Source: Thermodesulfobacteriota bacterium (GTDB lineage Bacteria; Desulfobacterota_D; UBA1144; Nemesobacterales; Nemesobacteraceae). From it: a stretch of DNA of 64,000 nt. The number at the start of each line of letters is the position of its first letter. Position 1 is the first letter of the stretch. The position numbers and the translations under genes were made by a program. The notes beneath the pieces are model-generated. The model did no database searches, was not told the DNA's origin, and saw nothing but the letters and a program-made list of their open reading frames with translations. The stretch covers positions 1,905,251 through 1,969,250 of the forward strand of contig OZ241964.1 of the NCBI GenBank assembly GCA_965204035.1, in the 5' to 3' direction. Shown piece by piece: positions 38,206 through 51,826 of this stretch.

Positions 38206-38274
38206 CTCAGCCGCGCACCACCCGAAATATCCCTTCTTGCCTTATTTCCTGTTTTGTATTACATTATAGTTATT

Positions 38275-39264
38275 ATGTCCAGGAAAAATATCTTCCTCGC
38301 CCTGCTCATCGGGACTTTTTTCCTGAGTGCCGCAAGGGACGCTGCCGCGTCGGCCAAATGCGGCGGGAGGTTCTTTAACCCGGTTTCGGACGTTGATTGG
38401 GGAGCGATGTTCCCGATAAAGATAGGGGGAGTAGCCATAACACCGGGTGAAAGGACCGACACGGTGAGTCATTTTCCGCTCTGTTTCTGCGGATCCCCCG
38501 TCCCCCGGGTCGGAATAAAGGTTTCGTTCTGGGAACCGGTGAAGCTGGTTGAGGTCGTAAGGCACCCCGGATGCTTCCCTTCGCTCGGGGGCAGAAAGCT
38601 TCCCCTTCCCTCCTTCGCCATGGCGGGGACATACGGGGAGGGAGGCGGGCAGCGTGGGGACAGGACCTCGTTTCTTCACGTCCACCACTTTCTCTACCCG
38701 GTGTTCTCCGTGCTTAACCTTTTTTCAAGTTTCGGGTGCATGACCCAGGGAGGATTCGACCTCGCATACCTCACGGCGTTTGATCCTCTCTGGAGCAACG
38801 ACGAGCTTTCGTTTCTGCTCCACCCCGAGATAGCGCTCGTGGCTAATCCCGCAGCCCAGGCATCGTGCGCCACGGACGCCGTGGCCGCCGCGGGGGGCTT
38901 TGGGATAAACGAGCTTTTCTGGTGCGCGGGATCCTGGGGAAGCGTCTACCCCCATACGGGGAACAACGGGGCCACGGGCGACCTCCCGGCCGTCTACGCG
39001 CTTTCGGCCGTAAAGCTGCTCGCGAAACTGCATAACGAACTTCTGGCGTTTAAGACCACGGGAGAAGGGTCTCTGTGCGCCGCGCAGCCTCACCGCGTAA
39101 TAGTGAAAGACCAGTACAAGCTTCAGCTCGCATTTCCGAAGAACACGCGGGCGTTCCCCATAGGGAGGGCGACGGCCCGCTGGGCTCCCGGCAAATGGTA
39201 CCCCGGGCAGGGAGAAGACTGGGTATGGGTGCTATGGAGAAAAAAAGATTGCTGCCTGCTCTGA
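38275..39264 (+). CDS. traU: F-type T4SS protein TraU
   Basis: Signal peptide then KCGGRFFNPVSDVDWGAMFPIKIGG, matching the TraU N-terminal C.G.F.NP..D..W signature. About 330 aa. Confidence 0.7.
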   Translation: MSRKNIFLALLIGTFFLSAARDAAASAKCGGRFFNPVSDVDWGAMFPIKIGGVAITPGERTDTVSHFPLCFCGSPVPRVGIKVSFWEPVKLVEVVRHPGCFPSLGGRKLPLPSFAMAGTYGEGGGQRGDRTSFLHVHHFLYPVFSVLNLFSSFGCMTQGGFDLAYLTAFDPLWSNDELSFLLHPEIALVANPAAQASCATDAVAAAGGFGINELFWCAGSWGSVYPHTGNNGATGDLPAVYALSAVKLLAKLHNELLAFKTTGEGSLCAAQPHRVIVKDQYKLQLAFPKNTRAFPIGRATARWAPGKWYPGQGEDWVWVLWRKKDCCLL

Positions 39265-39947
39265 TAGCGGTGGCGGTGGCCTTTACGGCAACGGCCTCCG
39301 CAACCGCAGAAAATCCCGCTTCGCTTAAGGGAGTAAGAACCAGCCCCGGCGAAGCAGAGCTCTCCCGCGTGAAAAAGCTTCTGGGGAACCTCAAGGAGCC
39401 CGATACGCAAGGGGCCGAGAAAACCCTCTCAGAGATAAGAAACAATTCCCCCGGGGAAAAAGAAACCGAAGAAATAATGGAACTGCTGTCGGCTAAACCC
39501 CAACCCGCGACGGCTCTTTCTGAAAAAAAGGCAGGAGCAGGAAGCGGGAACTCAAGGCTTTTTTACTTTTTCTCATTCTCGATGCCGCGCCTATCTCTGC
39601 GCGAAGCGGCGAGGGAAAGCGCGGCCGGCGGAGCGGTGATGGTTCTCCGGGGACTTTCGGGAGAAGACCTCGGGGGAACCGTCTCGCGGATATCCGAGGT
39701 CATAGGGAAAACCGGAGCGCAGGTATGGATAGACCCCCTTCTTTTCGAATGCTTCTCCGTAGGGGCCGTGCCGCAGACCGTACTTGCCCACGCCCACCTG
39801 CCGGGAGCGGACTGCGAGGGTCTGCGCCACGTAAAGGTTTCGGGGGACGTATCGCTTCCCTACGCTCTCGGGCTTATGGAAAAGGAGGATGCAAATGCCG
39901 GGATATTTATCGAACGGCTCAATAAAAACGGCTTTTACGGTGATTAG
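39225..39947 (+). CDS. trbC: F-type pilus assembly protein TrbC
   Basis: Starts within the end of traU (in-frame ATG at 39225 or 39234). Signal peptide (LLPALIAVAVAFTATASA). Position between traU and traN as in F. Confidence 0.45.
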   Translation: MGAMEKKRLLPALIAVAVAFTATASATAENPASLKGVRTSPGEAELSRVKKLLGNLKEPDTQGAEKTLSEIRNNSPGEKETEEIMELLSAKPQPATALSEKKAGAGSGNSRLFYFFSFSMPRLSLREAARESAAGGAVMVLRGLSGEDLGGTVSRISEVIGKTGAQVWIDPLLFECFSVGAVPQTVLAHAHLPGADCEGLRHVKVSGDVSLPYALGLMEKEDANAGIFIERLNKNGFYGD

Positions 39948-41628
39948 CCTCCTGCTCCTGCCGACTGTTGCGGCGCGTGCCGGGGAAGACTTCGAGGCGG
40001 GCCTCCGGGAGGGGCGCCTCCACGGAACTGAAATGCTGTCGCGCCACTCGCAAACCCTGAGTCCGTCAGAGATAGAGCCCGAAGCGCTTCCGGGCTACGA
40101 AACGCAGACCCGGCAGGAATTTCGCCAGGAGGGGTCCCGGTGGACCGGGGATCCCGAGGGGATGAAGACCGAAGCGGGAGGGAAGATACGGGGAGGGGAT
40201 CCTGCCACCTCCGACGCCGCCGGGTTTCTCAAGCGAAGCTCCGCGCAGAGGCCCGCGTTCACCATAGACCCCGAAACGGACCCCATGATCGCAGGCTCCA
40301 AGCGCGCAATCGAGGCCCCCTTGTCTTCTTCATGCGAGAAAAAGGAAGTATGCATCGAGTACGCGGAGAGCTTATGGAACGAACAAAAAGAGTGCTACGA
40401 GGAGGCGACGCTCAGCAGACATTACTGCAACGTGAAAAAGACCGTTACCGTGATCCCCCGGGACACCGAGTCCCGACGGAGAGCCGCACACACTGCCACC
40501 GAAACCACGCACGAAACGCGTATTGAGACCGACGACGGCTGCGCGGACCTCGCAGCGGCCGGAAACTGCGAAACCTTCAGGAACCGCTGCCTCGGGACCA
40601 CCCGGACTCCGGACGGAGAAACCGTCTGCCTAAACAGGGAATACACCTACCTCTGCGCAAGCCCCCTCACCGAAGGCCCCGACTGCGCGGAGCTGCGTGC
40701 CGAGGGCTGCCACCAGACCTGGGCGCGCTGCGTCATGAGGTTTCGCGAGCACCCCGAGTTCCCCGACCCGGCGGGGACGGATCTCGGGGTATGCCTTATC
40801 CAGGAAAACACCTATGACTGCCCGAAAAACATGAGCCTCTGCCGGAAAAAGAGCGTCGCGCTTGACTGCGGCGGGGAAATCCGCTGCGCCTCGGGAGAGG
40901 ACTGCTTCGATACCTCTACGGAGCAGAACACCGATTTTCCCAAGGTGGCGTCGCGCATGGCAATGCTCGCCGACATGGAGCGCTGCCTCGCGACGACCGC
41001 GGACGGCGAGAGTTCCGCCGAGGGATACGGACCCATCGAGGTCGACGGGACGACGGGAGCGACCGCGGGACCGATCGACTGCGCGGACACCTCGGGCGGG
41101 AGAGTGACGATATTCAAGGGAAAACGCTACCGCTGCGATCTCAATCTCGCGGGATTCATACAGAACTGCTGCAGGAAAAAGGGGCTTTTCTCGGGCGCGT
41201 GTCCCAAGAGCACAAAAGAGCTTCGCGCGAGAAGGGACGATGCGGGGGCCTGCCATTACGTCGGTATCCACAAGAAGAAGGTGCTGGGAGTGACGCTAAA
41301 GAAAAGAAAGGTTTACTGCTGCTTTAATTCCAGGATGGCAAGGGTGATCCACGAGCAGGCAAGGGGACAGCTCATGGAAAAAGGGCTCTGGGCAACGGCC
41401 AGAAACGGCGGCTGGGGCGGTGCCAAGAATCCTCTTTGCGGAGGGATGACCGCGGAGCAGCTCCAGGAAATAGACTTTGACGCGGTGGATTTCTCCGAGA
41501 TTTACGCGGACCTCCTTGACGCCGCCGATATCCCCGACCTTGCGGATGTGACCGAGAGCACAGAAGAGGATATCGAGGATCTCTGCCCGGACGGGTCGCC
41601 TGGCTGCAGCGGGGAGGTGGAACAGTGA
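39889..41628 (+). CDS. traN: F-type mating-pair stabilisation protein TraN (Cys-rich)
   Basis: Signal peptide. Over 25 Cys in characteristic clusters (CYEEATLSRHYC; CLNREYTYLCASPLTEGPDCAELRAEGCHQTWARC). Size and position. Confidence 0.6.
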   Translation: MQMPGYLSNGSIKTAFTVISLLLLPTVAARAGEDFEAGLREGRLHGTEMLSRHSQTLSPSEIEPEALPGYETQTRQEFRQEGSRWTGDPEGMKTEAGGKIRGGDPATSDAAGFLKRSSAQRPAFTIDPETDPMIAGSKRAIEAPLSSSCEKKEVCIEYAESLWNEQKECYEEATLSRHYCNVKKTVTVIPRDTESRRRAAHTATETTHETRIETDDGCADLAAAGNCETFRNRCLGTTRTPDGETVCLNREYTYLCASPLTEGPDCAELRAEGCHQTWARCVMRFREHPEFPDPAGTDLGVCLIQENTYDCPKNMSLCRKKSVALDCGGEIRCASGEDCFDTSTEQNTDFPKVASRMAMLADMERCLATTADGESSAEGYGPIEVDGTTGATAGPIDCADTSGGRVTIFKGKRYRCDLNLAGFIQNCCRKKGLFSGACPKSTKELRARRDDAGACHYVGIHKKKVLGVTLKKRKVYCCFNSRMARVIHEQARGQLMEKGLWATARNGGWGGAKNPLCGGMTAEQLQEIDFDAVDFSEIYADLLDAADIPDLADVTESTEEDIEDLCPDGSPGCSGEVEQ

Positions 41629-42425
41629 GAGCGATCCTCGCAACGCTGGCCGCCGCATTTTTTGTTCTCTCCCCGGAGCCCGCAGTGCCTGGAGAACCGT
41701 ATTTCGACCAGAAGGAGCGGGGCTGGTTCTGGTATGAACCTCTCCCTCCGCGCACGGAGGAGGCGCGGCCCGGAACCTCCGGGAGGAAGCTAACCGTAAA
41801 AGGGATAAGGGAAAGGGGAGAGAGGCTTTTTGAGGACGCCCTTCTCTCCCCGACCAAAGAGAACGTGAGGGAGTACATGGAGCACCAGAAACAGGTACTT
41901 GAGCGAAGCGAGGAATTCGCGCGTGTCTGGAAACGGGTCCTTTGGGAGAGCCCGGCGCTTGACTCGACGGTCGATAATCCCGTAAGCGCCGCGGGAGCCG
42001 AGATCTCAAGAAATCTCAGAAAAACCGCCCGCGACGGCGTGATCGAGAAAATATCCCGGGTCGGAAAGCTCGTTTTCTTTTTCCGTTCGGACTGCCCGTT
42101 TTGCCGCGGGCAGGCGGAGATCATAAAAACACTTGAGAGGAGGCATGGGATCGGGGTCCTGGCGGCGTCCCTTGACGGAAGGGGGCTTCACCCTCTCTAC
42201 CCGCATTTTGTAAACGGCGCGGCGCAGGCCGCGCGTCTTGGAGTCGAGCAGGTGCCGGCGCTTTTCCTGTTTGTCCCCTCGCAGAGAAAGATCGCCCGGA
42301 TAGGCACGGGCTACCTCACTCTCGGCGAAATAAGGCGAAGGCTCCACGTAGTTGGAGAGGAAGTGCTCGGAACGGGACGTGAGGAGGACAAAGAACTTTT
42401 CCTGCTCGGCGGGGAGGGAACATGA
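41625..42425 (+). CDS. traF: F-type T4SS thioredoxin-fold protein TraF (TrbB-like; CPFC motif present)
   Basis: Signal peptide. LVFFFRSDCPFCRGQAEIIKTLERRHG thioredoxin-like CxxC. Order traN-traF-traH. Confidence 0.55.
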   Translation: MRAILATLAAAFFVLSPEPAVPGEPYFDQKERGWFWYEPLPPRTEEARPGTSGRKLTVKGIRERGERLFEDALLSPTKENVREYMEHQKQVLERSEEFARVWKRVLWESPALDSTVDNPVSAAGAEISRNLRKTARDGVIEKISRVGKLVFFFRSDCPFCRGQAEIIKTLERRHGIGVLAASLDGRGLHPLYPHFVNGAAQAARLGVEQVPALFLFVPSQRKIARIGTGYLTLGEIRRRLHVVGEEVLGTGREEDKELFLLGGEGT

Positions 42426-43822
42426 GAAAAACATTCCTTGGGATAATATTTGTTTTCGCCCTCATTCTCCCGCCCCGTGTCTGCCTGGCCGATCTCGGGA
42501 GCGAGGTCCGCGGCATGTTCGACCGCCTCGGGCTCTCGGGGACCGCCACGTCGGCCGGGGTCTACGAGGGGCAGTCAAGGGGATTCGTCACGGGAGGCTC
42601 GGTCTCGGTAAGGCTTCCCAACGAAACCATACAGCCGCTTTCCGTGAGCCTCCCGCATCTTCGCTCGGGGTGCGGAGGGGTGGATCTTTTCCTGGGAGCG
42701 ATCTCCTACATAAGCGCGGACGACCTCATACGGAAGATGAAGGCCATAGGGACGTCGTTTTCAAGCTACGCGTTCATGATGGCGCTTAAGACGCTCTGCT
42801 CCCCGTGCGAGAACATAATGGAAAAGCTCGAGGCCGCCTCGCGCGCCGCAAACTCCCTCAGTGTCGACACGTGCAGGGCGGGGGAGAGCCTCGCCGAGGG
42901 AATATTCGGGCAAGGAGGAATAATCAGGGGAGAGCAGGCGGGGCGCTGCGCGTTCGTGGGAGTCAGGCAGTCACTTTTCACCGACCCGGCGGAGGGGCTC
43001 TCCGAATGCCGCACCCAAAGCGGGATAACAAACACCGTCGCGGACATAAACGCGGGCACCGTCGCGCAGGACAAGGAGCTGGTAAAGCCGACCAGAAACA
43101 CGGTGTGGGAGGCGCTTCGGACCATTCCTCCGGGAACCCTCTCAAAGGAGCAAAAAGAGCAGGTGATGAGCGTCACGGGAACTTTCATAATCACGCAGAC
43201 GCACTCTGAGTACAAGCCCCCGACCATAAGCCTCGAGTACCTCGCGGGCGGAGGCGGCGCGGGGAAGGTGTATGACTGCGGGTCGGACCCCGATTGCGCG
43301 GCGCCCGCAACAGCACCTGTCGGGGCGAGCTTCAAGCCGTTTTCAGAACTTGTCTCGGAGAAACTGCTTGAGGCCCACGCTTCCATAGTCGGAAACCGCC
43401 GCCCGCAGGACGATACCGTCAGGTTTCTCGACGCGCTGCCCTTTCCCGCGTGGAAGCTTCTCTCCTCGGCCGGGGCGGTGGATCCCGAGATAGGCGGAAC
43501 CTACGTCTCCGCGCTTGCGAGGCCGATAGCGGTGTTCTCCGTGGCGGCGTGGCTTGAGCGGGCGGAACGAAGCCTCTGGAGCGGCGTCGGGAGCTCCGAG
43601 AGAAAGGGAACGCTCTCCGCGATGGACAGAAAAAAGATCGCCGAGCGGATGAGGATGCTCCGCGAGGAGATCTCGCTCATGATGGAGCAGGAGAACACGA
43701 AGATAGAGGAGCTTGTCTACGCCCTCTCCATAATAGAGCACCTTGACTCCCGGTCCCCGGTGGTGTTCGAGAGAAAAAGCCGCCACAAGGCGGGCGACGA
43801 GGTGATACAGGGTGCCGACTGA
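42422..43822 (+). CDS. traH: F-type T4SS protein TraH
   Basis: Signal peptide. GGSVSVRLPNETIQPLSVSLPHLRSGCGGVDLFLGAISYI matches the TraH signature (SLP...aGCGGIDlF.G..S.I). Confidence 0.7.
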   Translation: MRKTFLGIIFVFALILPPRVCLADLGSEVRGMFDRLGLSGTATSAGVYEGQSRGFVTGGSVSVRLPNETIQPLSVSLPHLRSGCGGVDLFLGAISYISADDLIRKMKAIGTSFSSYAFMMALKTLCSPCENIMEKLEAASRAANSLSVDTCRAGESLAEGIFGQGGIIRGEQAGRCAFVGVRQSLFTDPAEGLSECRTQSGITNTVADINAGTVAQDKELVKPTRNTVWEALRTIPPGTLSKEQKEQVMSVTGTFIITQTHSEYKPPTISLEYLAGGGGAGKVYDCGSDPDCAAPATAPVGASFKPFSELVSEKLLEAHASIVGNRRPQDDTVRFLDALPFPAWKLLSSAGAVDPEIGGTYVSALARPIAVFSVAAWLERAERSLWSGVGSSERKGTLSAMDRKKIAERMRMLREEISLMMEQENTKIEELVYALSIIEHLDSRSPVVFERKSRHKAGDEVIQGAD

Positions 43823-46800
43823 GGGAACCATGGACGGGGAAAACACGCGCGCCGGGCGCCCGGGGACGGCTTTCGCGCTCGGGACCGCGGCGCTCGCGGG
43901 GGTCCTGCTTTTCCCGGAGACGGCGGGGGCCCAGGGGGGCTTCCAGATAGACACCTACGGAAACGGGCAGTTCATAGCCGAGGTGCTTAACTCCGTAGCG
44001 ATCCTGGCTGGCTCGGGCCTACTGGGTCTCATACGCCTGGGCCTGGTGGCGGGCATACTGCTCGCGGTCCTGTCCTCGTTTTTCGGCGGAAGGACGGCTC
44101 CCGGCCACCAGTTCGCGCTCTCCATACTCATCTACATGATGCTCTTCGGCGTGAAGGTCGACATGGCGGTCTACGACAGGGTGACCTCGTACACGAGGGT
44201 GATATCGTCGGTGCCGGCCGGGGTCGGGATTTTCGCCTGGGCGACCTCGGGGGTCGGAAGCGGTCTCACCAGGGTCATGGAGGGGGCGTTCTCGCTTCCG
44301 GGCGCGCTTCGCTACTCGGAAAACGGGCTGCTCCGCGGGGCCGAGCTAATAAAGCGCTCGACCTCGTTCGCGGTCGCGGAGCCCCATCTCGCCAACACCC
44401 TTGACTCCTTTGTGAGGGAGTGCGGCCTGAAAAGCATAACCTCGGGGCTCGTGAGCCCCGACAGCCTCGAGAAGTCGGCCGATCTTTTCTCCTCCATGGG
44501 AACGGCCAACTACCGTTTCGTGGAACTCCACACAAACGTCGCCCTGCCCGCGGGCGCCTACGCCTCCCCACAGAGCGCGGGGGACTGCTCCGCGGCCGCA
44601 AGGCCCATACTGGCCTACTGCGGGGAAGCGCACGCGGGCGTAAACGCCTGCCTCAACGCCTACTATCCCGGGTGGACGAAGGAGCTTGCCGAGGAATCCG
44701 GGTTCGTCGACCGCCAGACCAACGCAGTCGACACAGCCGGCTTCACGGCGGCCCTTCGTGAATCGTACAGGGAGCTTGCCGGGGTCTCGATGTCCGCAAA
44801 GGACATAATCATCCAGAACGCCCTTATAAACAGCTACTCCCGCTCGATCAAGTCGCTCGCGGTCGCCGGGGGGTCTGAGGCCTCGCTTCTCAGCCTCTCG
44901 ATCGCCGAGGCGCGCGCGAGGCAGAAAAACTCGTTTCTGGTGCTGGGAGAGATGGCCCGCCACACCCTCCCCTACATAAGGGGGCTCCTCCAGGGAATGC
45001 TCTACGGCATATTCCCGGCGGTGATCTTCCTGGCGATGACGCCGCTTGCGGCGCGGATAATCCCCGCCTACCTGATCGCGATGTTCTGGACCGAGCTCTG
45101 GAATCCCATATACGCCATAGTGAACCTGTTCTCAAGCCTGAAGCTCGCAAGGGCGCTCGGTCCCTACACAGACGGCGCCCTCACCGTGATATCGAGGGGC
45201 TCCGTCGTTCACGAGTCCGACATGGCCATGGCGGTCGCGGGGCTTGCGGCCACCATAGTCCCCATGATCGCCTACTACGTCGTCTCGGCAAGCCAGCACG
45301 CCGTGGTGGGGGCCGTGCAGCAGTTCATGGGCCCCACGCAGTCAATCTCGACCCAGACGGCCGGGGCCCACGCCGCGGGAAACATATCGCTTGGAAACGT
45401 GTCGGTCGCGACGGGGCGCTACGACACGGTGACGGCGAACAAGTCCGATGTCGCCCGCGAGTCGGTGACGGGGAGCCTCACCCGCCGCTACGACAATGTC
45501 CACGAGCAGCCGGCCTCAAGCGTGGGAGGGATGCGGATAACGGGAGAAGAGGGCGTCCGGTTCGCGGCAAGGGAGGAGCTTGCCGACACCATGCGGAACA
45601 TGGAGGCAAGCAGGGAGGCGGTAACGGATTCCGCGGCCGCGGCGTCCGTGCGGATGGTCGGGGCCTCGCGCGCGGCCACGGACGAGAGGGGCTACTCCGA
45701 GGCGCTCGGGCTCTCAAGCGCTACGGGCGAGAAGAAGGATCTCGCGACCGTGCTCGAGACGGCCGAGAACCTGCAGAGGCGGTTCGGCCTCTCCCGCCAG
45801 GAGTCGCTCAAGATGTCGTGGGATACCGCGATGGTCTACGAGACGGGGGCGCGGGCTGGAGCTTCCGCGGGGCTTGCGGGCGGAGGCCCCGGGAGAGCGT
45901 CGGTCGGCGCGGGGATAAAGGCGCGGGGAGCGCGCAAGACCGACACGAGCGCGGCCGAGAGGTACGAGGAGGCAAGGGAGTTCGCCTCTAGCTCAAACTC
46001 CCGGGTGAATTTCTCAACGGCTTTCTCCGAGCTTGAGAGCACGCTCACGTCAAGGGAGGCCCGCGAGAGCCTGCAGTTCACGGCCCGGGACTCGGAGGAG
46101 GCGAGGGCCGAGCTTCGCTCCGCGAGAAGCTCCCTTCAGGATTACTCCTCCCAGAGGGAGAGGGCAAGGGCCTACTCAGAAGTGCTCTCGGGGGAGAGCT
46201 CCTTCGGCGCGGGTCTTGAGAGGGAGTACACCCAGGCGGTGTTTGCCGACATGAGGGGGCAGGGCCACTCGGACAGCTACGTGGCCAGGGGACTTACCGA
46301 CCTTCGCGACGGAAGATACGACACCGGGGAAGCGGAAGCCGTCTCCGGATCGATACACAGGGTAACGGGCCTCTCGGAACTTGTCGGCGCGGGAAGGGGA
46401 ACCAGGGAATCGGTCGCCGCGATGCCCGCGGAGGGCTACGGCCTCGGCAACGTCCGCAGATTCGAGGTCGACGCGGAGCAGTCCTTCGGGGAATACAGGA
46501 AGTCTGCCGCGGGGGCCGGTGGCGCCGGGGTGACGCAGACGCAAAGTTCGATAGAGGAGGATTCCGCGGCGATAAGGGAGCAGGTGTCCCGCGCGCGGGA
46601 GCGGGCCCGGGGAAAAATCGAAACCGGCGGGACAAAAACCGCGGAGAATCTTGGGGCTGGGAGAGACGAGATATTCGAGGGCGGGGAGTCTCTTCAGCGT
46701 TCAACTGAAGGGGTGCGGAAGCGTCTTGATAACGCGAGATCGGAGAGCGTTTCCCGGGAACAGGGAATGTCTGAAATCAGAAAGTCTATCGAGAGCAGCA

Positions 46801-46835
46801 GGGCGCAGCAGGAAAAAGACGACGGGGCCGGATAA
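43812..46835 (+). CDS. traG: F-type T4SS protein TraG (VirB6-like membrane N-domain + long C-terminal domain)
   Basis: About 1000 aa. Multiple N-terminal TM helices, hydrophilic Ser/Arg/Glu-rich C-terminal half. Last gene of the order H-G. Confidence 0.6.
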   Translation: MPTEGTMDGENTRAGRPGTAFALGTAALAGVLLFPETAGAQGGFQIDTYGNGQFIAEVLNSVAILAGSGLLGLIRLGLVAGILLAVLSSFFGGRTAPGHQFALSILIYMMLFGVKVDMAVYDRVTSYTRVISSVPAGVGIFAWATSGVGSGLTRVMEGAFSLPGALRYSENGLLRGAELIKRSTSFAVAEPHLANTLDSFVRECGLKSITSGLVSPDSLEKSADLFSSMGTANYRFVELHTNVALPAGAYASPQSAGDCSAAARPILAYCGEAHAGVNACLNAYYPGWTKELAEESGFVDRQTNAVDTAGFTAALRESYRELAGVSMSAKDIIIQNALINSYSRSIKSLAVAGGSEASLLSLSIAEARARQKNSFLVLGEMARHTLPYIRGLLQGMLYGIFPAVIFLAMTPLAARIIPAYLIAMFWTELWNPIYAIVNLFSSLKLARALGPYTDGALTVISRGSVVHESDMAMAVAGLAATIVPMIAYYVVSASQHAVVGAVQQFMGPTQSISTQTAGAHAAGNISLGNVSVATGRYDTVTANKSDVARESVTGSLTRRYDNVHEQPASSVGGMRITGEEGVRFAAREELADTMRNMEASREAVTDSAAAASVRMVGASRAATDERGYSEALGLSSATGEKKDLATVLETAENLQRRFGLSRQESLKMSWDTAMVYETGARAGASAGLAGGGPGRASVGAGIKARGARKTDTSAAERYEEAREFASSSNSRVNFSTAFSELESTLTSREARESLQFTARDSEEARAELRSARSSLQDYSSQRERARAYSEVLSGESSFGAGLEREYTQAVFADMRGQGHSDSYVARGLTDLRDGRYDTGEAEAVSGSIHRVTGLSELVGAGRGTRESVAAMPAEGYGLGNVRRFEVDAEQSFGEYRKSAAGAGGAGVTQTQSSIEEDSAAIREQVSRARERARGKIETGGTKTAENLGAGRDEIFEGGESLQRSTEGVRKRLDNARSESVSREQGMSEIRKSIESSRAQQEKDDGAG

Positions 46836-46950: not shown

Positions 46951-48189
46951 ATGTCACGTTCTTATGTCCGCTGGCAGCGGAACACTTTGGAAAAAGCTCT
47001 CGAAACGCGCCGCGTGCTGTTGCTCTGCGGAGCGCGGCAATGCGGCAAGACTACTCTTGCCAAGGAACTGGTTTCACATGATGTAGCCTACCGCACTTTA
47101 GATGATCCGGCCGTACGGCAGATTGCCGAAACCGACCCCCGAGGTTTTGTCAGGCACTCGGGAAAAACCCTCATTATCGACGAGATCCAGCGTGCTCCCG
47201 ATCTGCTTTCCGCGATCAAGATAAATGTAGATGAAGATACAAGGCCCGGACAATACCTGCTGACAGGTTCGGCCGACATACAGTCTTCCCCGGGGGTGCG
47301 GGAATCTCTCGCCGGACGTATAAGAAAGGTACGGCTGCGTCCGCTCACGCAGGGAGAGATTTTGGGGGTGGTTCCAGACTTCCTTGACCGGGCTTTCGGA
47401 CAGGACTTCGGGCATCCCGACCGCGCTTACGGTCGTGACGCCATGCTGGACATCTCTTTTGGGGGCGGCTTCCCGGAAGCTATTCTGCTTGGGGACGCAG
47501 AACGAAGACTATGGCATCGGGACTATGTGGACGCGATTCTTGAGCGCGACCTGAGGGATCTCGGGCGTATCCAGCGACGCGATGCCATGAGCGAACTGAT
47601 ATATGCCCTGGCAGCATGGTCGGGCAAATTCATGGACATCTCATCCATAGCCGCCGGACTTTCCATCGTCCGCTCCACGGTCGAGACATATATAAACGCC
47701 TTGGAAACCCTGTATGTGGTCGAGCGCATAAGGCCGTGGAAACGCACGGACTACGCGCGGGCGGGGAAACGCCCCAAGCTGTTTATGACCGATTCGGGAC
47801 TTATGTCTTCGATTCTCGACTGGGACAGGCAGCAGGTTCGCATGGACGCGGACCGCTCGGGCAAACTGATTGAAACCTTCATGTTCAACGAAATAGCCGC
47901 CCAGGCAGACGCCAATGCCGGAAAATACAGCCTGTTTCATTACCGTGACCGCGAAAAGCGCGAGATTGACTTCCTGATCGAAAGGGAGGACTCGGCGCTA
48001 CTCGGGATTGAGATCAAGGCGGGCTCGGCCATCGGAACGAGCGATTTCAGAAGCCTCAGCTGGTTTAAGAAAAACATCGCGCGCGACAGAAAATTTACCG
48101 GGGTCGTACTCTATTCGGGAGAACTCGCGGGTTCCATGGGTGACGGGCTGTGGGCCGTTCCTTTCGGAACGGTCTGGAACCGGTCGTAA
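46951..48189 (+). CDS. AAA+ ATPase of the DUF4143-containing (COG1373-like) family
   Basis: Walker A LLCGARQCGKTTLAKE; Walker B-like TLIIDEIQRAPD. About 410 aa, typical architecture. Confidence 0.55.
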   Translation: MSRSYVRWQRNTLEKALETRRVLLLCGARQCGKTTLAKELVSHDVAYRTLDDPAVRQIAETDPRGFVRHSGKTLIIDEIQRAPDLLSAIKINVDEDTRPGQYLLTGSADIQSSPGVRESLAGRIRKVRLRPLTQGEILGVVPDFLDRAFGQDFGHPDRAYGRDAMLDISFGGGFPEAILLGDAERRLWHRDYVDAILERDLRDLGRIQRRDAMSELIYALAAWSGKFMDISSIAAGLSIVRSTVETYINALETLYVVERIRPWKRTDYARAGKRPKLFMTDSGLMSSILDWDRQQVRMDADRSGKLIETFMFNEIAAQADANAGKYSLFHYRDREKREIDFLIEREDSALLGIEIKAGSAIGTSDFRSLSWFKKNIARDRKFTGVVLYSGELAGSMGDGLWAVPFGTVWNRS

Positions 48190-48625
48190 GCCGGCTGGCT
48201 CACCTTGAAAGAGTAAAATGCATGGCGGCCTGTCGTACAAAACTTCTCTTGCCGCTTGGTAAGAAACATGAAATTCCGTTATCCTTGCAAATTGTGCATA
48301 TGATTGCTTGATTTGCAAGGATAAGCCGCTTGAATCAATTGGGAATTATATACAATAGTGCCGAAAGTCCTTAATCCTCAGTCCTTCTTAAAGCGATGTG
48401 CCTTGTGCTCGGATACATCCTTCCTTTGAACATTTACAGGCTGGACTATCGCCTTAGCCAATTCCTCTGGGGTAGCATCAATAGAAAACTCTTCATTCAT
48501 TTCTGCCACCGTTGGTTCATAGTCGCTTGGCAGAATCTCTATATCGTCTTTCTCTGGCTCTTCGCTCAACTGATCACCCCTCGGACTTTTCGGATAGTGA
48601 ATACTACCCTATTTTGACGCTGAAA

Positions 48626-49205
48626 TCAACGCTGTTCCCTCCTGCAATAAGCTCGCTCCTCTCTAGGCACAGAATTTATAACCTCCCCATACTGATACAC
48701 CAATGAAGGTCTTGCTTCAATTGCATATTGACTATGGATTATGTCACGGAAAACATCATGGGGAAGGTCGAGAATTGTGTCATAAAGCCCTAATTCCTGT
48801 TGTATCTCCCTCCCACTGACAACAGTGGAACAGGTAACAATTCCAGGGTAGGTGTCAAGACGTAAGCACAGTCTCCCATGAGAAACTACCCAGTGTCCCG
48901 CAACATCAGGCGGCCGAGTCCCGACCTCACAAGCTTCCCAAACCGCTTCTGCTGCCTCTGCTATTTCTTCATGGTCAATTGTTCCTGTAAAAGTTCCATC
49001 GGGGTTGTAATCGTTGGTCTCTCCTTCACAAGACCAGTAGTCATCTCCTCTTGTAATGAGAAACTCGGGATGTTCCCCGGACGGTAACGGTTCAGTATGG
49101 GTCAATGTAGGGTCAGAACAGTCTGTCTCTAGATCACCTCCATCACCGCCCCCACAACCAGCAACAAAAATCAATACTACGAATAAAGACAGAATCGTCC
49201 TCATG
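48626..49205 (-). CDS. lipoprotein (passenger of the IS-bounded element)
   Basis: MRTILSLFVVLIFVAGCGGGDGG lipobox. The longer listed ORF upstream is probably not translated. Confidence 0.35.
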
Positions 49206-49458
49206 ACAAAACCTCCTAAGCTTGGTTTTAGCCTGGACGCAAGGCACCGGGCCTTGCTTACAACCAAAGAGACTTTGGACGTTCTGCTTCTTTGCCGGAT
49301 GGCTATTGTATCCACAGAGACCCGGCAGAGCGGGTTCTCTTCGGTTGTAAGCAATTCTGACTATATCACAACGAGGCGGGATAATCTATGAGAATTTCAA
49401 TCTTGAGAAACACTGACTGCCGGGTACAATTCCCGCCAACCAAAATTAGGAGAGTGCT

Positions 49459-50034
49459 ATGGCAAACGGGAATCTAGAAAAACCTAAATGCGTTTATGGA
49501 ATATTCACAGCAGAGATTGTGCCGAACACCGTGGAGAGTTTAATTCAGACGTTATCAAAAATAGCGCAAGAGAATATTCCTGAAGTATACCTTGCACTTT
49601 CAACGCCTGGCGGAAATGTTGCCCAAGGTATTACTCTCTACAATTTCCTTCTAGGAACACCTTTTAAGCTTACCATTCACAACATAGGCAATGTTGATTC
49701 GATCGGAAATGCAGTCTTCCTTGCAGCTGACGAAAGATTTGCATGCGCACGCTCAACCTTTATGTTTCACGGCGTAGGATTTGACCGGGAAGCGGGACGG
49801 TTTGAAGAAAAGCAGTTGCGGGAAATGTTAGACGGAATCAGCGCAGACCAAAGGCGTATCGGAGACATCATCACCGAACGCACCGGTATCCCTCAAAATG
49901 AAGTGGATGGATTCTTCCGAGAAGCTCAAACCAAAACGGCGGAATTCGCTTGCGATAGGGGCATAGTTAACGATATCCGAGAGTTTAATTTGCCCGGTGG
50001 CGTACCCGTATTCTCGTTTGTATTCAAGCGATAA
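49459..50034 (+). CDS. ClpP-like (S14 / 'SDH family Clp-fold') serine protease, 191 aa
   Basis: STPGGNVAQGITLYNFL (cf. ClpP INSPGG.V.AGLAIYD), NVDSIGNAVFLAAD (Ser nucleophile region), MFHGV (His). RBS aggagagtgctATG. Confidence 0.55.
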   Translation: MANGNLEKPKCVYGIFTAEIVPNTVESLIQTLSKIAQENIPEVYLALSTPGGNVAQGITLYNFLLGTPFKLTIHNIGNVDSIGNAVFLAADERFACARSTFMFHGVGFDREAGRFEEKQLREMLDGISADQRRIGDIITERTGIPQNEVDGFFREAQTKTAEFACDRGIVNDIREFNLPGGVPVFSFVFKR

Positions 50035-50197
50035 TGCATCAGGAATCGCTTTTCTTATAAAAACTAAATTCATTTTCGACCTCACCCAACTATGATTGTA
50101 CTGGCCTGTCAATACGATTGCAAGTTTTTGTCACTCTTGATTACCATTGTTCATCAAATCATCCACTCACTTTCGGGTGGCATTCCTCTAGAAACTA

Positions 50198-51172
50198 TCA
50201 AAGGGGATATTTGTTGTCAACTTTATCGTTTGTAATCAGATCCTTATACTTAAGCCTTTTCCCCACAATGCCCTTCGCAAGGAATGCCATCTGGTCTACC
50301 GTGTCCATCTCTCGGACATTGTGGCGACCTGCGAACTCCGTAACGTAACGCTCCAAGTGCTTCGGAGAGATGCGATGGTAGGTTCCGTAATAACCTCTCT
50401 TTAGTTGAGCCCAGAAGGACTCCACGCCGTTTGTGTGTGCCATATCACGGACATACTCTCCTACGCTGTGATTTACGCTTTCATGCTCGAAGGGAAGCCC
50501 GATATAGCTTCTGTGATCGTCCGTGTAAACCATCGCTTTCTGGGAGACATTCGCACTGATAAATCCTTGCAACTCTTCCTTTGTCCTTTCAGGAACAGGC
50601 TTGGCTACCACCTTGTTGGTTTTCCTGTCTTTCATTCCCACTACTACAGTCTTTCCCGAAGGACCCCGAGTGAAGCTACGCTTGTCCGCATGTTTGTTTT
50701 TCTCTTTGCCGCCTATGAAAGTTTCGTCTACTTCTACAGGACCGGTAAAGTCTTCTGACTCGCCTTTCCACGATTCCCTGATACGATGTGCTAAATGCCA
50801 AGCAGACTTCTGCGTGATCTCCAAGTCTCTGTGCAGCTTCATGCTGGATACTCCCTTGAGGGAAGTGGTAACAAGGTAAGTAGCTATCGCCCAAGTCTGG
50901 TATCCAAGATTGGACGCTTCCATGACAGTGCCAGTTCTGACGCTGAATCGTTTGGCGCATTCCTTTTCACGGCAACGATAGGGCATAGTCTTGTGCTTTG
51001 CTCCCGATTGAACATTCGTAGACCCGCAATGCGGGCAAGCGGGTTTTCCTTCCCATCTTTGCTCCGCAAACCATTTCTCCGCAGTCTTGTCGTCGGGGAA
51101 CATCCTGAACAGTTTTGGTAAACTGATTCCTTTTCTGAACGCCTTGCCTGGTGCTTTCTGTTTCTTGCTCAT
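50198..51172 (-). CDS. IS1595-family (ISXO2-like) DDE transposase
   Basis: N-terminal zinc-ribbon KPACPHCGSTN...YRCREKEC; DDE core (MVYTDDHRSY, ...GVESFWAQLKRGYYGTYH) typical of IS1595. Confidence 0.7.
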   Translation of the reverse strand: MSKKQKAPGKAFRKGISLPKLFRMFPDDKTAEKWFAEQRWEGKPACPHCGSTNVQSGAKHKTMPYRCREKECAKRFSVRTGTVMEASNLGYQTWAIATYLVTTSLKGVSSMKLHRDLEITQKSAWHLAHRIRESWKGESEDFTGPVEVDETFIGGKEKNKHADKRSFTRGPSGKTVVVGMKDRKTNKVVAKPVPERTKEELQGFISANVSQKAMVYTDDHRSYIGLPFEHESVNHSVGEYVRDMAHTNGVESFWAQLKRGYYGTYHRISPKHLERYVTEFAGRHNVREMDTVDQMAFLAKGIVGKRLKYKDLITNDKVDNKYPL

Positions 51173-51530
51173 TTTTAGTCTCCTCATTCTGAGTAAGAAT
51201 ATCAAGGGTTTAGAGTCACCTCATGGCAGTTTTTTGACATTCGACAATCAGTTCCGCAGCATAGCCGGAGGAAAAGTCACCCGTCAAGGCTTTTGCACTG
51301 TGTTTTGTGGGGGAAATGGAGGGAAGTTTGGCTAGTTAGATATAATCGGCACTATTGTATATAATTCCCAATCAATTACCTTGCCACCGTATCAAAGTCC
51401 GGCAAGACAAGAAAAACCGATTTGTCGGATTAGTGGCGCCTTAGAGGTTCGTCGGTTCCCCGAAATTTCGGCCTGCTAGCCTAATCTCTCACGCTCCACG
51501 AAGAGAAAGAAGCCTATTTGCTCCAGTCAT

Positions 51531-51596
51531 CTAGGCGTAACCAGCCGCACGCTTGAATTCCCGGGTGTTATTGGTGTCCAGCACGTACCTGAGCAT
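51531..51596 (-). pseudogene. vapC: vapC (PIN toxin) remnant: 21 codons MLRYVLDTNNTREFKRAAGYA then stop
   Basis: Start overlaps the vapB stop (TGATG). MLRYVLDTN is the canonical VapC N-terminus (MLKYMLDTN...); it ends about 150 bp before the IS-element inverted repeat. Confidence 0.45.
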
Positions 51597-51826
51597 CAGA
51601 AAGGTTCCCTCTCCTGATTCCCGGTCTGATCGCGCTCATTCATGAAGTCATCCGTAACACCCTCCCCCTCAAACCAACTGTCCCATGCCTCTCCTGCCGG
51701 AGTGATCAAGCGGGAACGTCCGAGACGGATAATATCCACTTCCTTTACGGTATCCGGCAAGGAAACCGGCTTGGGAAGCCGCACCGCTTGGCTTTTATTG
51801 TGCTTAAAGACTTTTACCCTTTCCAT
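51596..51826 (-). CDS. vapB: VapB-like antitoxin (SpoVT/AbrB fold)
   Basis: MERVKVFKHNKSQAVRLPKPVSLPDTVKEVDIIRLGRSRLITPAGEAWDSWFEG matches the VapB pattern (taKlFkng.SQAVRLPKefrf.g.eV.I.r.Gd.lil.P....W..f). Confidence 0.6.
   Translation of the reverse strand: MERVKVFKHNKSQAVRLPKPVSLPDTVKEVDIIRLGRSRLITPAGEAWDSWFEGEGVTDDFMNERDQTGNQEREPF

What the first reader, a model, noticed from the sequence alone, without database searches (positions are those of the whole stretch)
48338..51600. IS1595-family element (about 3 kb) with ClpP-like and lipoprotein passengers, inserted at a vapBC locus leaving a truncated vapC
Near-perfect ~28-bp inverted repeats at 48338-48366 and 51349-51377 enclose the IS1595-type transposase plus three passenger ORFs, including a 191-aa ClpP-like serine protease. 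Just outside the right IR an intact vapB is followed, in the canonical TGATG overlap, by only 21 codons of vapC (MLRYVLDTN...) before a stop. Either the insertion or an earlier event destroyed the toxin while keeping the antitoxin. IS1595 members are usually about 1 kb with no passengers, so this longer variant is notable.
Basis: seen in the sequence. Interest (0 to 1): 0.55.

Follow-up and report, generated by a model that had tools for sequence, protein, structure and literature searches.

The report
Cargo-carrying IS1595-family insertion sequence
This is a 3-kb jumping gene of a known type (an IS1595-family insertion sequence carrying extra genes) sitting next to a broken toxin–antitoxin pair that it did not break, so it is a well-documented but ordinary case.

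Summary
The element spans 48341-51369 (3,029 bp). It has perfect 24-bp terminal inverted repeats and an 8-bp target duplication, AATCAATT. Its GC is 46%, against 56% for the rest of the window.

It encodes an intact IS1595-type transposase with a zinc ribbon and D149/D218/E251/K258. Only two ORFs are cargo: a solitary ClpP-like Ser-His peptidase and an orphan Cys-rich lipoprotein. The third "passenger" (63 aa) is a conserved small gene. It lies just inside the transposase-distal repeat in most related elements checked, including 1.35-kb elements with no cargo.

Relatives with the same repeat type and 8-bp duplications range from 1,351 to 4,736 bp and carry different cargo. The identical 24-bp repeat occurs at five insertion sites.

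The insertion did not damage vapC. The remnant joins VapC residues 1-9 to residues about 111-131, with one frameshift. The ancestral stop lies 136 nt from the element.

Cargo-carrying "transporter IS" were defined in this very family in 2009. This is a new member of a known kind.

Side finding: a covarying structured RNA, weakly similar to sRNA-Xcc1, precedes the lipoprotein gene.

The parts
48333..48340 (.). Left copy of the 8-bp target-site duplication, AATCAATT
   Evidence: Identical 8-mer directly outside both IRs. It fits the AT-rich WWWNNWWW pattern of 45 distinct duplications of related elements.
48341..48364 (+). Terminal inverted repeat distal to the transposase (IRR): GGGAATTATATACAATAGTGCCGA
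   Evidence: Perfect 24/24 match to the other end. Only two matches in the window, with 0 expected.
48378..48569 (-). 63-aa conserved small ORF (motif DY[EQ]P[ST]xxE..E....I..TPE.LAKAV..PV). Part of the IS core, not cargo.
   Evidence: tblastn and ORF survey find homologues just inside IRR in most related elements checked, including 1351-1388-bp elements without cargo. The profile finds 258 clusters of small proteins. No Pfam, NCBIfam or PADLOC family.
48626..49204 (-). 192-aa Cys-rich lipoprotein (MRTILSLFVVLIFVAG|C lipobox). Cargo on the sense strand.
   Evidence: Signal peptide and lipobox read from the sequence. Only one distant homologue in 5.8 billion proteins. The L085 counterpart is 35% identical, although the flanking DNA is 91-94% identical.
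49235..49358 (-). Structured RNA leader upstream of the lipoprotein gene, distantly similar to sRNA-Xcc1
   Evidence: Fold z-score -4.26. 96.9% of cells paired and 15 of 38 pairs compensatory, with 0/500 shuffles reaching this. Rfam RF02221 scores 23.4 bits here and 27-40 bits in homologous copies, all below the gathering score of 53. nhmmer finds it in 7 loci.
49459..50034 (+). 191-aa ClpP-like serine peptidase. Cargo, antisense to the transposase.
   Evidence: Pfam CLP_protease 2.8e-12. Best PDB match is 9uxt 'Clp protease', 1.3e-22. S81 and H104 are invariant in 105 homologues, with no invariant Asp. Homologues are solitary genes in unrelated contexts.
50198..51172 (-). IS1595-family DDE transposase, 324 aa
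   Evidence: Pfam DDE_Tnp_IS1595 1.6e-40 plus Zn_ribbon_IS1595. NCBIfam transpos_IS1595 8.1e-53, 179.5 bits against a cut-off of 75. C46/C49/C67/C72, D149, D218, E251 and K258 are invariant in 39 relatives.
51346..51369 (-). Terminal inverted repeat proximal to the transposase (IRL)
51370..51377 (.). Right copy of the target-site duplication, AATCAATT
51514..51596 (-). vapC pseudogene (flank, not part of the IS). N-terminal 9 codons fused to the C-terminal ~20 codons, with a 1-nt frameshift.
   Evidence: tblastn with two full-length VapC proteins gives residues 1-9, 111-125 and (shifted frame) 126-131, collinear. PDB VapC 3TND residues 111-125 match remnant residues 5-19.
51596..51826 (-). Intact vapB antitoxin gene (flank)
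   Evidence: NCBIfam TA_anti_VapB 4.2e-31, full length. 68% identical to Sphingobium plasmid VapB.
46951..48189 (+). DUF4143 AAA+ ATPase gene (flank), convergent with vapBC. The IS lies in the 304-bp spacer between them.
   Evidence: Pfam AAA_14 plus DUF4143. PADLOC PDC-S01 2.1e-137.

Best explanation
Window 48341-51369 is one copy of a transporter insertion sequence (tIS) of the IS1595 family, from a clade whose ends begin GGGRATTAT. It inserted into an AT-rich intergenic site (AATCAATT) between a DUF4143 ATPase gene and a decayed vapBC module, at the distal edge of an F-type conjugative element.

Inferred mechanism, from knowledge of the family: the zinc-ribbon/DDE transposase binds the two 24-bp terminal repeats. 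It joins the ends to target DNA cut with an 8-bp stagger, and repair of that stagger creates the AATCAATT duplication. Everything between the repeats moves as one unit.

The core of the element is the transposase plus a conserved 55-70-aa protein encoded just inside the distal repeat. Between them are two cargo positions separated by a conserved divergent region. One holds an antisense gene, here a solitary ClpP-like Ser-His peptidase. The other holds a sense-strand gene preceded by a structured RNA leader, here a fast-evolving Cys-rich lipoprotein. The two cargo genes are independent hitchhikers, not a functional pair.

The neighbouring vapC was inactivated separately. An internal in-frame deletion of about 100 codons lies at a repeated Thr-Asn codon motif, and there is also a 1-nt frameshift. 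vapB was left intact.
For: Shown:
- Perfect 24-bp IRs, found only at these two places.
- Exact 8-bp duplication.
- GC of 0.464 across the whole 3,029 bp, against 0.558 for the rest of the window.
- No internal IR.
- Transposase family assignment above curated cut-offs, with intact Cys4 and D/D/E/K residues.
- 43 of 80 related genomic loci have the same IR type with exact 8-bp duplications. Lengths run from 1,351 to 4,736 bp.
- The identical 24-mer IR occurs at five different insertion sites with different cargo: window, L001 at 4,733 bp, L105 at 2,803 bp, L106/107 and L090-095.
- The small ORF is conserved at the distal end in most related elements checked, including cargo-free ones.
- Cargo is independent. 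ClpP-like homologues are solitary genes between unrelated housekeeping genes. L085 has the leader, the lipoprotein and the small ORF but no ClpP-like gene.
- vapC: three collinear pieces match VapC residues 1-9, 111-125 and 126-131, and the ancestral stop lies 136 nt from the IS.
- Transporter IS are known in this family (PMC3129680, PMC7986276, both citing Siguier et al. 2009).
Against: No empty site was found in the metagenome scan, so the insertion is inferred from the duplication and the composition, not seen directly.

No second copy of this exact ClpP-plus-lipoprotein unit was found in any collection. Mobility of this particular cargo combination is therefore not demonstrated.

The rest of the source genome could not be searched. 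The window's own proteins are not retrievable with context.

Transposition chemistry, activity, and any role for the small ORF are inferred, not tested.

Assignment to the ISNwi1 subgroup rests on my recollection of the ISfinder end consensus (ggnnatTAT) and DDEK signature, not on a comparison with ISNwi1 itself.
Confidence: 0.9

Rival explanations
1. A normal ~1.2-kb IS1595 element lies next to unrelated chromosomal genes, and the far repeat at 48341 is a solo or coincidental IR.
For: Minimal relatives of 1,351-1,388 bp exist. Homologues of the ClpP-like gene occur outside any IS.
Against: The best internal match to the IR is 15/24, equal to the mean maximum of shuffles (14.85). The 8-bp duplication flanks the whole 3,029 bp. 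Low GC spans the whole interval. The conserved small ORF that ends related elements lies at the far end, next to the 48341 repeat.
Confidence: 0.03
2. The IS insertion, or a deletion it promoted, truncated vapC.
For: The IS lies close by, 136-153 nt from the remnant. IS elements can promote adjacent deletions (general knowledge).
Against: The remnant keeps both the first 9 codons and the last ~20 codons of vapC, including the ancestral stop region. The missing part is internal, so no deletion endpoint lies at the IS. The intact 8-bp duplication argues against an IS-adjacent deletion.
Confidence: 0.04
3. The ClpP-like peptidase and the lipoprotein form a functional two-gene module, for example a protease with its substrate or a defence or toxin pair, which the IS carries as a unit.
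For: The two genes are divergently arranged around a shared conserved intergenic region. Cargo of related elements is rich in defence-type genes: MTase-HNH, Peptidase_M78, GmrSD.
Against: No lipoprotein homologue lies next to any of the ClpP-like homologues examined. L085 carries the homologous lipoprotein with different antisense genes. Neither protein has a PADLOC match. The lipoprotein has essentially no relatives, whereas the peptidase has more than 500.
Confidence: 0.08
4. The element is an immobile fossil: a single degenerate copy that can no longer transpose.
For: Only one copy is present in the 64-kb window. No identical unit was found elsewhere.
Against: The IRs are perfect, the duplication is unmutated, and the transposase ORF is full length with all invariant catalytic and zinc-binding residues. 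Near-identical ends occur at four other sites in other assemblies.
Confidence: 0.15

Closest known systems
Transporter IS (tIS) of the IS1595 family, ISNwi1-type subgroup with passenger genes (Siguier, Gagnevin and Chandler 2009, Res Microbiol 160:232; ISfinder)
   Same: Zinc-ribbon plus DDE(K) transposase of the IS1595 type, terminal IRs starting GGGAATTAT, an 8-bp duplication, and passenger genes unrelated to transposition between the IRs, giving a total length of about 3 kb.
   Different: The closest transposases found are 87% identical or less, from uncultured Thermodesulfobacteriota MAGs, and under 45% identical in the plasmid collection. The cargo (ClpP-like peptidase plus orphan lipoprotein) was not seen in any relative. 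I am not aware that the conserved small distal ORF and the structured leader are part of the published family description. That is from memory, and ISfinder was not available.
VapBC type II toxin-antitoxin modules (e.g. Shigella/plasmid VapBC, PDB 3TND)
   Same: vapB is full length and 68% identical to plasmid VapB. The TGATG overlap and the first 9 and last ~20 codons of vapC are recognisable.
   Different: About 100 internal codons of the PIN domain are missing and the 3' part is frameshifted. This leaves an orphan antitoxin with a dead toxin gene.
ClpP proteolytic subunit and ClpP-related phage head-maturation proteases
   Same: Clp/crotonase-type serine peptidase fold by sequence, with the Ser and His of the catalytic site conserved. 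The best solved relative, 9uxt, is deposited with 14 chains.
   Different: Scores fall far below every NCBIfam ClpP equivalog cut-off. There is no invariant third acidic residue. The alignments to ClpP chains start at about ClpP residue 35, so the N-terminal segment has no alignable counterpart (in canonical ClpP, from memory, this segment forms the axial loops). No Clp ATPase or capsid gene lies nearby. The family occurs as solitary genes.
sRNA-Xcc1 (Rfam RF02221), an sRNA carried by integrons, transposons and plasmids
   Same: Full-length model alignment, with the shared AUACAAUA-CCC...GGG-AA core and an enclosing stem. It is carried on a mobile element and sits upstream of a variable gene, as reported for symE cassettes and an APSE phage gene (bioRxiv 10.1101/2025.06.18.660453; 10.1101/2020.03.17.996009).
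   Different: All scores (23-40 bits) fall below the gathering score of 53. Here there is an additional 17-bp outer helix, and the RNA precedes lipoprotein genes.

Membership tests
IS1595 family insertion sequence | DDE transposase of the IS1595/ISXO2 type | tested here: met
   Pfam PF12762 1.6e-40 (139 bits, cut-off 27). NCBIfam NF033547 179.5 bits (cut-off 75). D149, D218, E251 and K258 are invariant in 39 relatives.
IS1595 family insertion sequence | N-terminal zinc-ribbon domain | tested here: met
   PF12760 scores 25.4 bits, exactly at its cut-off. C46, C49, C67 and C72 are invariant.
IS1595 family insertion sequence | Terminal inverted repeats and an 8-bp target duplication | tested here: met
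   24-bp perfect IRs and the AATCAATT duplication. 43 related loci also have exact 8-bp duplications.
ISNwi1 subgroup of IS1595 | End consensus ggnnatTAT and a DDEK signature (recalled from ISfinder, not verified here) | tested here: inconclusive
   The ends read GGGAATTAT, and E251-x6-K258 is present. The consensus itself comes from memory.
ISNwi1 subgroup of IS1595 | Transposase clusters with ISNwi1 in a family phylogeny | not testable with these tools
   No ISfinder reference sequences were available. The Nitrobacter ISNwi1 was not among the 80 loci returned.
Transporter IS (tIS) | Passenger genes unrelated to transposition inside the IRs, moving with the IS | tested here: met
   The ClpP-like and lipoprotein genes lie inside the IRs and the duplication. 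Relatives with identical IRs carry other cargo at other sites.
VapBC toxin-antitoxin | VapB antitoxin | tested here: met
   NF040493 106.9 bits (cut-off 60), full length.
VapBC toxin-antitoxin | Full PIN-domain VapC toxin | tested here: not met
   Only residues 1-9 and about 111-131 remain, and the latter part is frameshifted. No Pfam or NCBIfam hit.
ClpP (ATP-dependent Clp protease proteolytic subunit) | Clp protease domain with the Ser-His-Asp triad | tested here: inconclusive
   PF00574 scores 47.3 bits (cut-off 20.2). S81 and H104 are invariant, but there is no invariant acidic residue at the third position.
ClpP (ATP-dependent Clp protease proteolytic subunit) | Equivalog-level similarity to ClpP | tested here: not met
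   TIGR00493 scores 21.5 bits against a cut-off of 308.6. All NCBIfam ClpP models fall far below their cut-offs.
sRNA-Xcc1 (RF02221) | Score at or above the Rfam gathering threshold | tested here: not met
   23.4 bits in the window and 27.1-39.9 bits in homologous copies, against a gathering score of 53. The best E-value is 7e-4.
Bacterial lipoprotein | Signal peptide ending in a lipobox with an invariant Cys | tested here: met
   MRTILSLFVVLIFVAG-C is read from the translation. The same N-terminus occurs in L085 and L082. No dedicated predictor was available.

The most novel reading that the evidence does not exclude
This IS1595 clade may be an organised gene-shuttle platform and not just an IS with random hitchhikers. 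It has an undescribed 55-70-aa accessory protein (DYQPSK...PV motif, at least 258 sequence clusters) encoded at the transposase-distal end. It has two exchangeable cargo positions. It also has a covarying sRNA-Xcc1-like RNA that, together with a conserved lipoprotein signal peptide, forms a portable 5' module for fast-evolving surface lipoproteins. The hosts are uncultured bacteria, and I suspect many are sponge-associated. If so, the small protein would be a new transposition cofactor or regulator, and the RNA a new cis-regulator of mobile lipoprotein genes.
Probability: 0.25. Interest if true: 0.5.

Novelty: new member of a known kind. Interest (0 to 1): 0.3.

Why it matters
As filed, the finding adds one well-delimited example to a class defined in 2009: IS1595-family elements that carry passenger genes. 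It also corrects two tempting misreadings. The IS did not kill the toxin gene, and one of the 'passengers' is core.

It is useful for annotation, because automatic pipelines would call four unrelated genes here.

The wider survey gives modest extra value. In uncultured bacteria this clade is usually cargo-bearing, and the cargo is mostly DNA methyltransferase-HNH fusions and other defence-type genes. It inserts into AT-rich WWWNNWWW sites. It has a conserved small ORF and, in one sub-lineage, a structured RNA leader. Neither feature has been characterised.

Tried and rejected
- Exact look-ups of the window's ClpP-like protein and transposase, and of the 100%-identical hit P0001, returned no contig. 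The source genome could therefore not be searched for further copies.
- A 26-nt reconstruction of the empty site had no match in metagenome contigs.
- PADLOC gave nothing for the cargo or the small ORF.
- Pfam and NCBIfam gave nothing for the lipoprotein or the small ORF.
- AlphaFold on the lipoprotein (2-sequence alignment) was unusable, with mean pLDDT 34.6.
- AlphaFold on the small ORF gave two short helices and pTM 0.26, so no fold search was run.
- Rfam gave no match above a gathering score.
- I considered an integron attC-like site for the long stem. I rejected it by eye because the core motifs are in the wrong orientation (5'-GTTGC...GCAAC-3').
- A literature search for PDB entry 9UXT found nothing.
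- The FEMS review of IS families (PMC7190074) is not held.
- A MAFFT alignment of the vapBC DNA misplaced the deletion gap. tblastn resolved it.
- The DUF4143 ATPase gene next to the IS end in L106 looked like a shared insertion site. It has no nucleotide similarity to the window's gene.
Full report
**1. The observation**

The repeat finder reports arms at 48333-48364 and 51346-51377 (32 nt, 94% complementary). Read base by base, this is two features.
- One is a perfect 24-bp terminal inverted repeat, GGGAATTATATACAATAGTGCCGA, at 48341-48364 and, reverse-complemented, at 51346-51369.
- The other is an 8-bp direct repeat, AATCAATT, directly outside each end (48333-48340 and 51370-51377). It is nearly its own reverse complement, so it looked like extra repeat length.

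The 24-mer occurs exactly twice in the window at up to three mismatches, with none expected in 100 shuffles. The element is therefore 48341-51369, or 3,029 bp. Its GC is 0.464, against 0.558 for the rest of the window and 0.58-0.62 in the 5 kb on either side. The low GC covers the whole interval, not only the transposase.

**2.

I searched the inside of the element for another end. The best ungapped match to the 24-mer on either strand is 15/24. The best match near 50100-50200 is 14/24. The mean maximum over 200 shuffles is 14.85. No second repeat follows the transposase stop, so the 3-kb unit stands.

**3. Genes inside the element**

- *Transposase, 50198-51172(-), 324 aa.* A GAGGAG motif lies 8 nt upstream of the ATG. 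It matches Pfam DDE_Tnp_IS1595 (1.6e-40) and Zn_ribbon_IS1595. It also matches NCBIfam transpos_IS1595 at 179.5 bits against a cut-off of 75. Across 39 distinct relatives, C46, C49, C67, C72, D149, D218, E251 and K258 are invariant. The zinc ribbon and the DDE(K) site are therefore intact.
- *ClpP-like peptidase, 49459-50034(+), 191 aa.* It matches Pfam CLP_protease (2.8e-12) but falls far below every NCBIfam ClpP cut-off. Its best solved relative is 9uxt, 'Clp protease', at 1.3e-22.
- *Lipoprotein, 48626-49204(-), 192 aa.* It has the lipoprotein signal MRTILSLFVVLIFVAG|C and no family match.
- *Small ORF, 48378-48569(-), 63 aa.* It has no family match.

**4. Relatives, and which genes are core**

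A scan of one genome per species found 137 loci encoding relatives, and 80 were kept. The best are 87% identical (L001, L002). All are in MAGs: Thermodesulfobacteriota, Dadabacteria, Alphaproteobacteria, Chloroflexota, Acidobacteriota and others.

In 43 of the 80 loci I could delimit an element with the same end type (GGGRATTAT...AGTGCC) and an exact 8-bp duplication. Lengths run from 1,351 to 4,736 bp. With the window and one metagenome element, there are 45 distinct duplications. They average 77% A+T in genomes of 50-70% GC, and they follow a WWWNNWWW pattern that AATCAATT fits.

The 63-aa ORF has homologues in most of these elements. They always lie on the transposase strand, just inside the distal repeat, and they occur in the 1,351-1,388-bp elements that carry nothing else. 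The alignment shows protein-type conservation, with the motif DY[QE]P[ST]KAE[LM]EED..I..T.E.LA.AV..PV. A profile finds 258 clusters of 45-100-aa proteins in 1.84 billion representatives. This ORF belongs to the IS core. It is not a passenger.

AlphaFold gives no globular fold for it: pTM 0.26, two short helices, with the highest confidence over the motif. Its function is unknown. A transposase-binding or regulatory peptide is my guess only.

**5. Cargo is modular**

The ClpP-like and lipoprotein genes have no homologue in any of the 80 loci. Cargo in relatives is dominated by N6/N4 DNA methyltransferase-HNH fusions (7 of 36 proteins scanned) and Peptidase_M78/ImmA-like proteins (3). GmrSD, type I R-M parts and DprA also occur.

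The identical 24/24 repeat occurs at five different sites:
- the window (AATCAATT, 3,029 bp);
- L001 (AATGATAA, 4,733 bp, carrying ImmA-like, membrane and lipoprotein/zincin genes);
- L105 (AAAGGAAA, 2,803 bp, with other small genes);
- L106/L107 (TATTGTTG);
- L090-L095 (AGTCGATT).

L085 shares 91-94% nucleotide identity with the window over the leader and over the small ORF and repeat. Yet its lipoprotein is only 35% identical beyond a nearly identical signal peptide, and its antisense genes are different.

The ClpP-like gene shares 86% nucleotide identity over exactly 49396-50086 with a contig where it is not in an IS. Other homologues are solitary genes. One lies between lolC-like and lolD-like genes, and another between DAHP synthase and aspartokinase genes. 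A third lies downstream of transposase or integrase fragments that differ between contigs. The two cargo genes are thus independent acquisitions.

In 105 homologues of the peptidase, S81 and H104 are invariant, at the positions of the ClpP Ser and His. No acidic residue is invariant at the third position. The alignments to ClpP chains begin at about ClpP residue 35, so the N-terminal segment of ClpP has no alignable counterpart. From memory, that segment forms the axial loops in canonical ClpP. I therefore predict an active Ser-His peptidase that does not work as a canonical ClpXP or ClpAP partner. That is inference.

**6. A structured RNA in the cargo region**

The region between the two cargo genes is conserved in elements whose cargo differs.
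- The minus-strand transcript folds with a z-score of -4.26.
- On seven copies (six distinct), 96.9% of cells pair. 15 of 38 pairs show compensatory changes, 9 of them in a 17-bp outer helix. No shuffle out of 500 reaches this, and slid controls pair at only 33-46%.
- Rfam's only match is sRNA-Xcc1 (RF02221). It scores 23.4 bits in the window and 27-40 bits in the homologous copies, with a best E-value of 7e-4. All are below the gathering score of 53. L001 and L002 gave no match at E up to 5.
- sRNA-Xcc1 is described as carried by integrons, transposons and plasmids. It is reported upstream of symE in cassettes and upstream of a phage gene (bioRxiv 10.1101/2025.06.18.660453; 10.1101/2020.03.17.996009).
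- nhmmer also finds the leader inside the tIS of L007, upstream of a lipoprotein. It finds it in L082 too, upstream of a chromosomal lipoprotein with the same signal peptide.

I treat this as a distant relative of sRNA-Xcc1, or a look-alike, acting as a 5' leader of lipoprotein genes. It fails the Rfam membership criterion.

**7. The vapBC neighbour**

vapB (51596-51826, minus strand) is intact (NCBIfam 4.2e-31). I compared full-length VapC proteins from two plasmids whose VapB is 67-68% identical. They match the window in three collinear pieces:
- residues 1-9 at 51596-51570;
- residues 111-125 at 51584-51540, in the same frame;
- residues 126-131 (LRVEDW against LRLDDW) at 51540-51523, in a shifted frame, followed by Ser-Lys-stop at about 51514.

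The solved VapC 3TND matches the remnant in the same way. The 21-codon ORF is therefore the N-terminus fused to the C-terminus of vapC. About 100 codons are lost at a junction where both ends read Thr-Asn (ACC AAT | AA...). A microhomology-mediated deletion is my inference. A 1-nt frameshift followed. The ancestral stop lies 136 nt from the IS duplication, which is itself intact. The IS did not cause the loss.

**8. Context**

To the left lie the F-type conjugation genes TraU, TraN, TraF, TraH and TraG (38254-46835). They are followed by a DUF4143 AAA ATPase, which matches the PADLOC candidate PDC-S01 at 2.1e-137. To the right of vapB lie glycosyltransferase, aminotransferase, DprA-like and helicase genes. 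The IS thus sits in the 304-bp spacer between two convergent accessory genes, at the distal edge of what appears to be an integrated conjugative element.

**9. Comparison with what is known**

IS elements with passenger genes ('transporter IS') were introduced in the paper that defined the IS1595 family (Siguier, Gagnevin and Chandler 2009). That paper is cited for exactly this point in PMC3129680 and PMC7986276. From memory of ISfinder, the ISNwi1 subgroup has ends ggnnatTAT, 8-bp duplications, a DDEK signature, and passenger-carrying derivatives of 1.75-4.75 kb. All of that fits here, but I could not check it against ISfinder.

**10. Verdict**

This is a real, cleanly delimited and probably recent insertion of a known kind of element. 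Interest is low to moderate (0.3). The parts that may be new are the small core ORF, the structured leader, and the modular cargo layout.

Noticed in passing
window 49235-49358 (-); also L001 7934-8058, L007 2663-2783, L082 4214-4340(-), L085 930-1053, L086 1522-1647, L091 391-518 and 2183-2309: A conserved structured RNA lies upstream of lipoprotein genes. It has a 17-bp outer helix with 9 compensatory pairs. It resembles Rfam sRNA-Xcc1 at 23-40 bits, below the gathering score. It occurs inside several tIS and at one chromosomal lipoprotein gene.
   Followed up: partly
window 48378-48569 (-) and the distal ends of related elements (e.g. L033 element positions 1103-1318): A small-protein family of 55-70 aa with the motif DYQPSKAELEED...PV is encoded just inside the transposase-distal repeat of this IS1595 clade. 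It has at least 258 clusters, no Pfam family and no predicted fold.
   Followed up: partly
window 48626-49204 (-) compared with L085 1082-1666 and L082 3019-4185(-): These lipoprotein genes share a nearly identical signal peptide (MR..LSLF.V..FV.GCGGG) and 5' leader, but their mature parts are very divergent or unrelated. The flanking DNA in L085 is 91-94% identical, while the protein is 35% identical. This suggests cassette exchange or diversifying selection.
   Followed up: partly
window 38254-46835 (+): F-type type IV secretion and conjugation genes (TraU, TraN, TraF, TraH, TraG_N) lie directly upstream. This suggests an integrated conjugative element whose distal end holds the ATPase, the IS and vapB.
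   Followed up: partly
window 46951-48189 (+): The DUF4143 AAA+ ATPase matches the PADLOC candidate defence family PDC-S01 at 2.1e-137. In L106, an unrelated copy of the same gene family also abuts an IS end.
   Followed up: no
window 48279-48324: A perfect 14-bp palindrome (TTATCCTTGCAAAT, 18 nt, ATTTGCAAGGATAA) ends 8 bp from the insertion site. It may be a terminator or operator of the convergent genes. Any role in target choice is unknown.
   Followed up: no
related loci L004, L045, L048, L073, L075, L077, L078, L002: The most common cargo of this IS clade is an orphan N6/N4 DNA methyltransferase fused to an HNH nuclease. Peptidase_M78 (ImmA-like) with a membrane protein recurs too (L001, L032).
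   Followed up: partly
L002 3900-12530: The closest relative's second copy is itself broken by nested insertions. One encodes an IS21-like two-gene pair (my reading of a 513-aa and a 258-aa ORF). The other encodes a further 502-aa transposase-like ORF. No simple IR pair could be found.
   Followed up: no
window 51337-51365 (+): A promoter-like site (TAGATA, 17 nt, TATAAT; 10/12) overlaps the transposase-proximal repeat and points outward, towards the vapC remnant. The number of promoter-like sites in the region is not above shuffle expectation.
   Followed up: no
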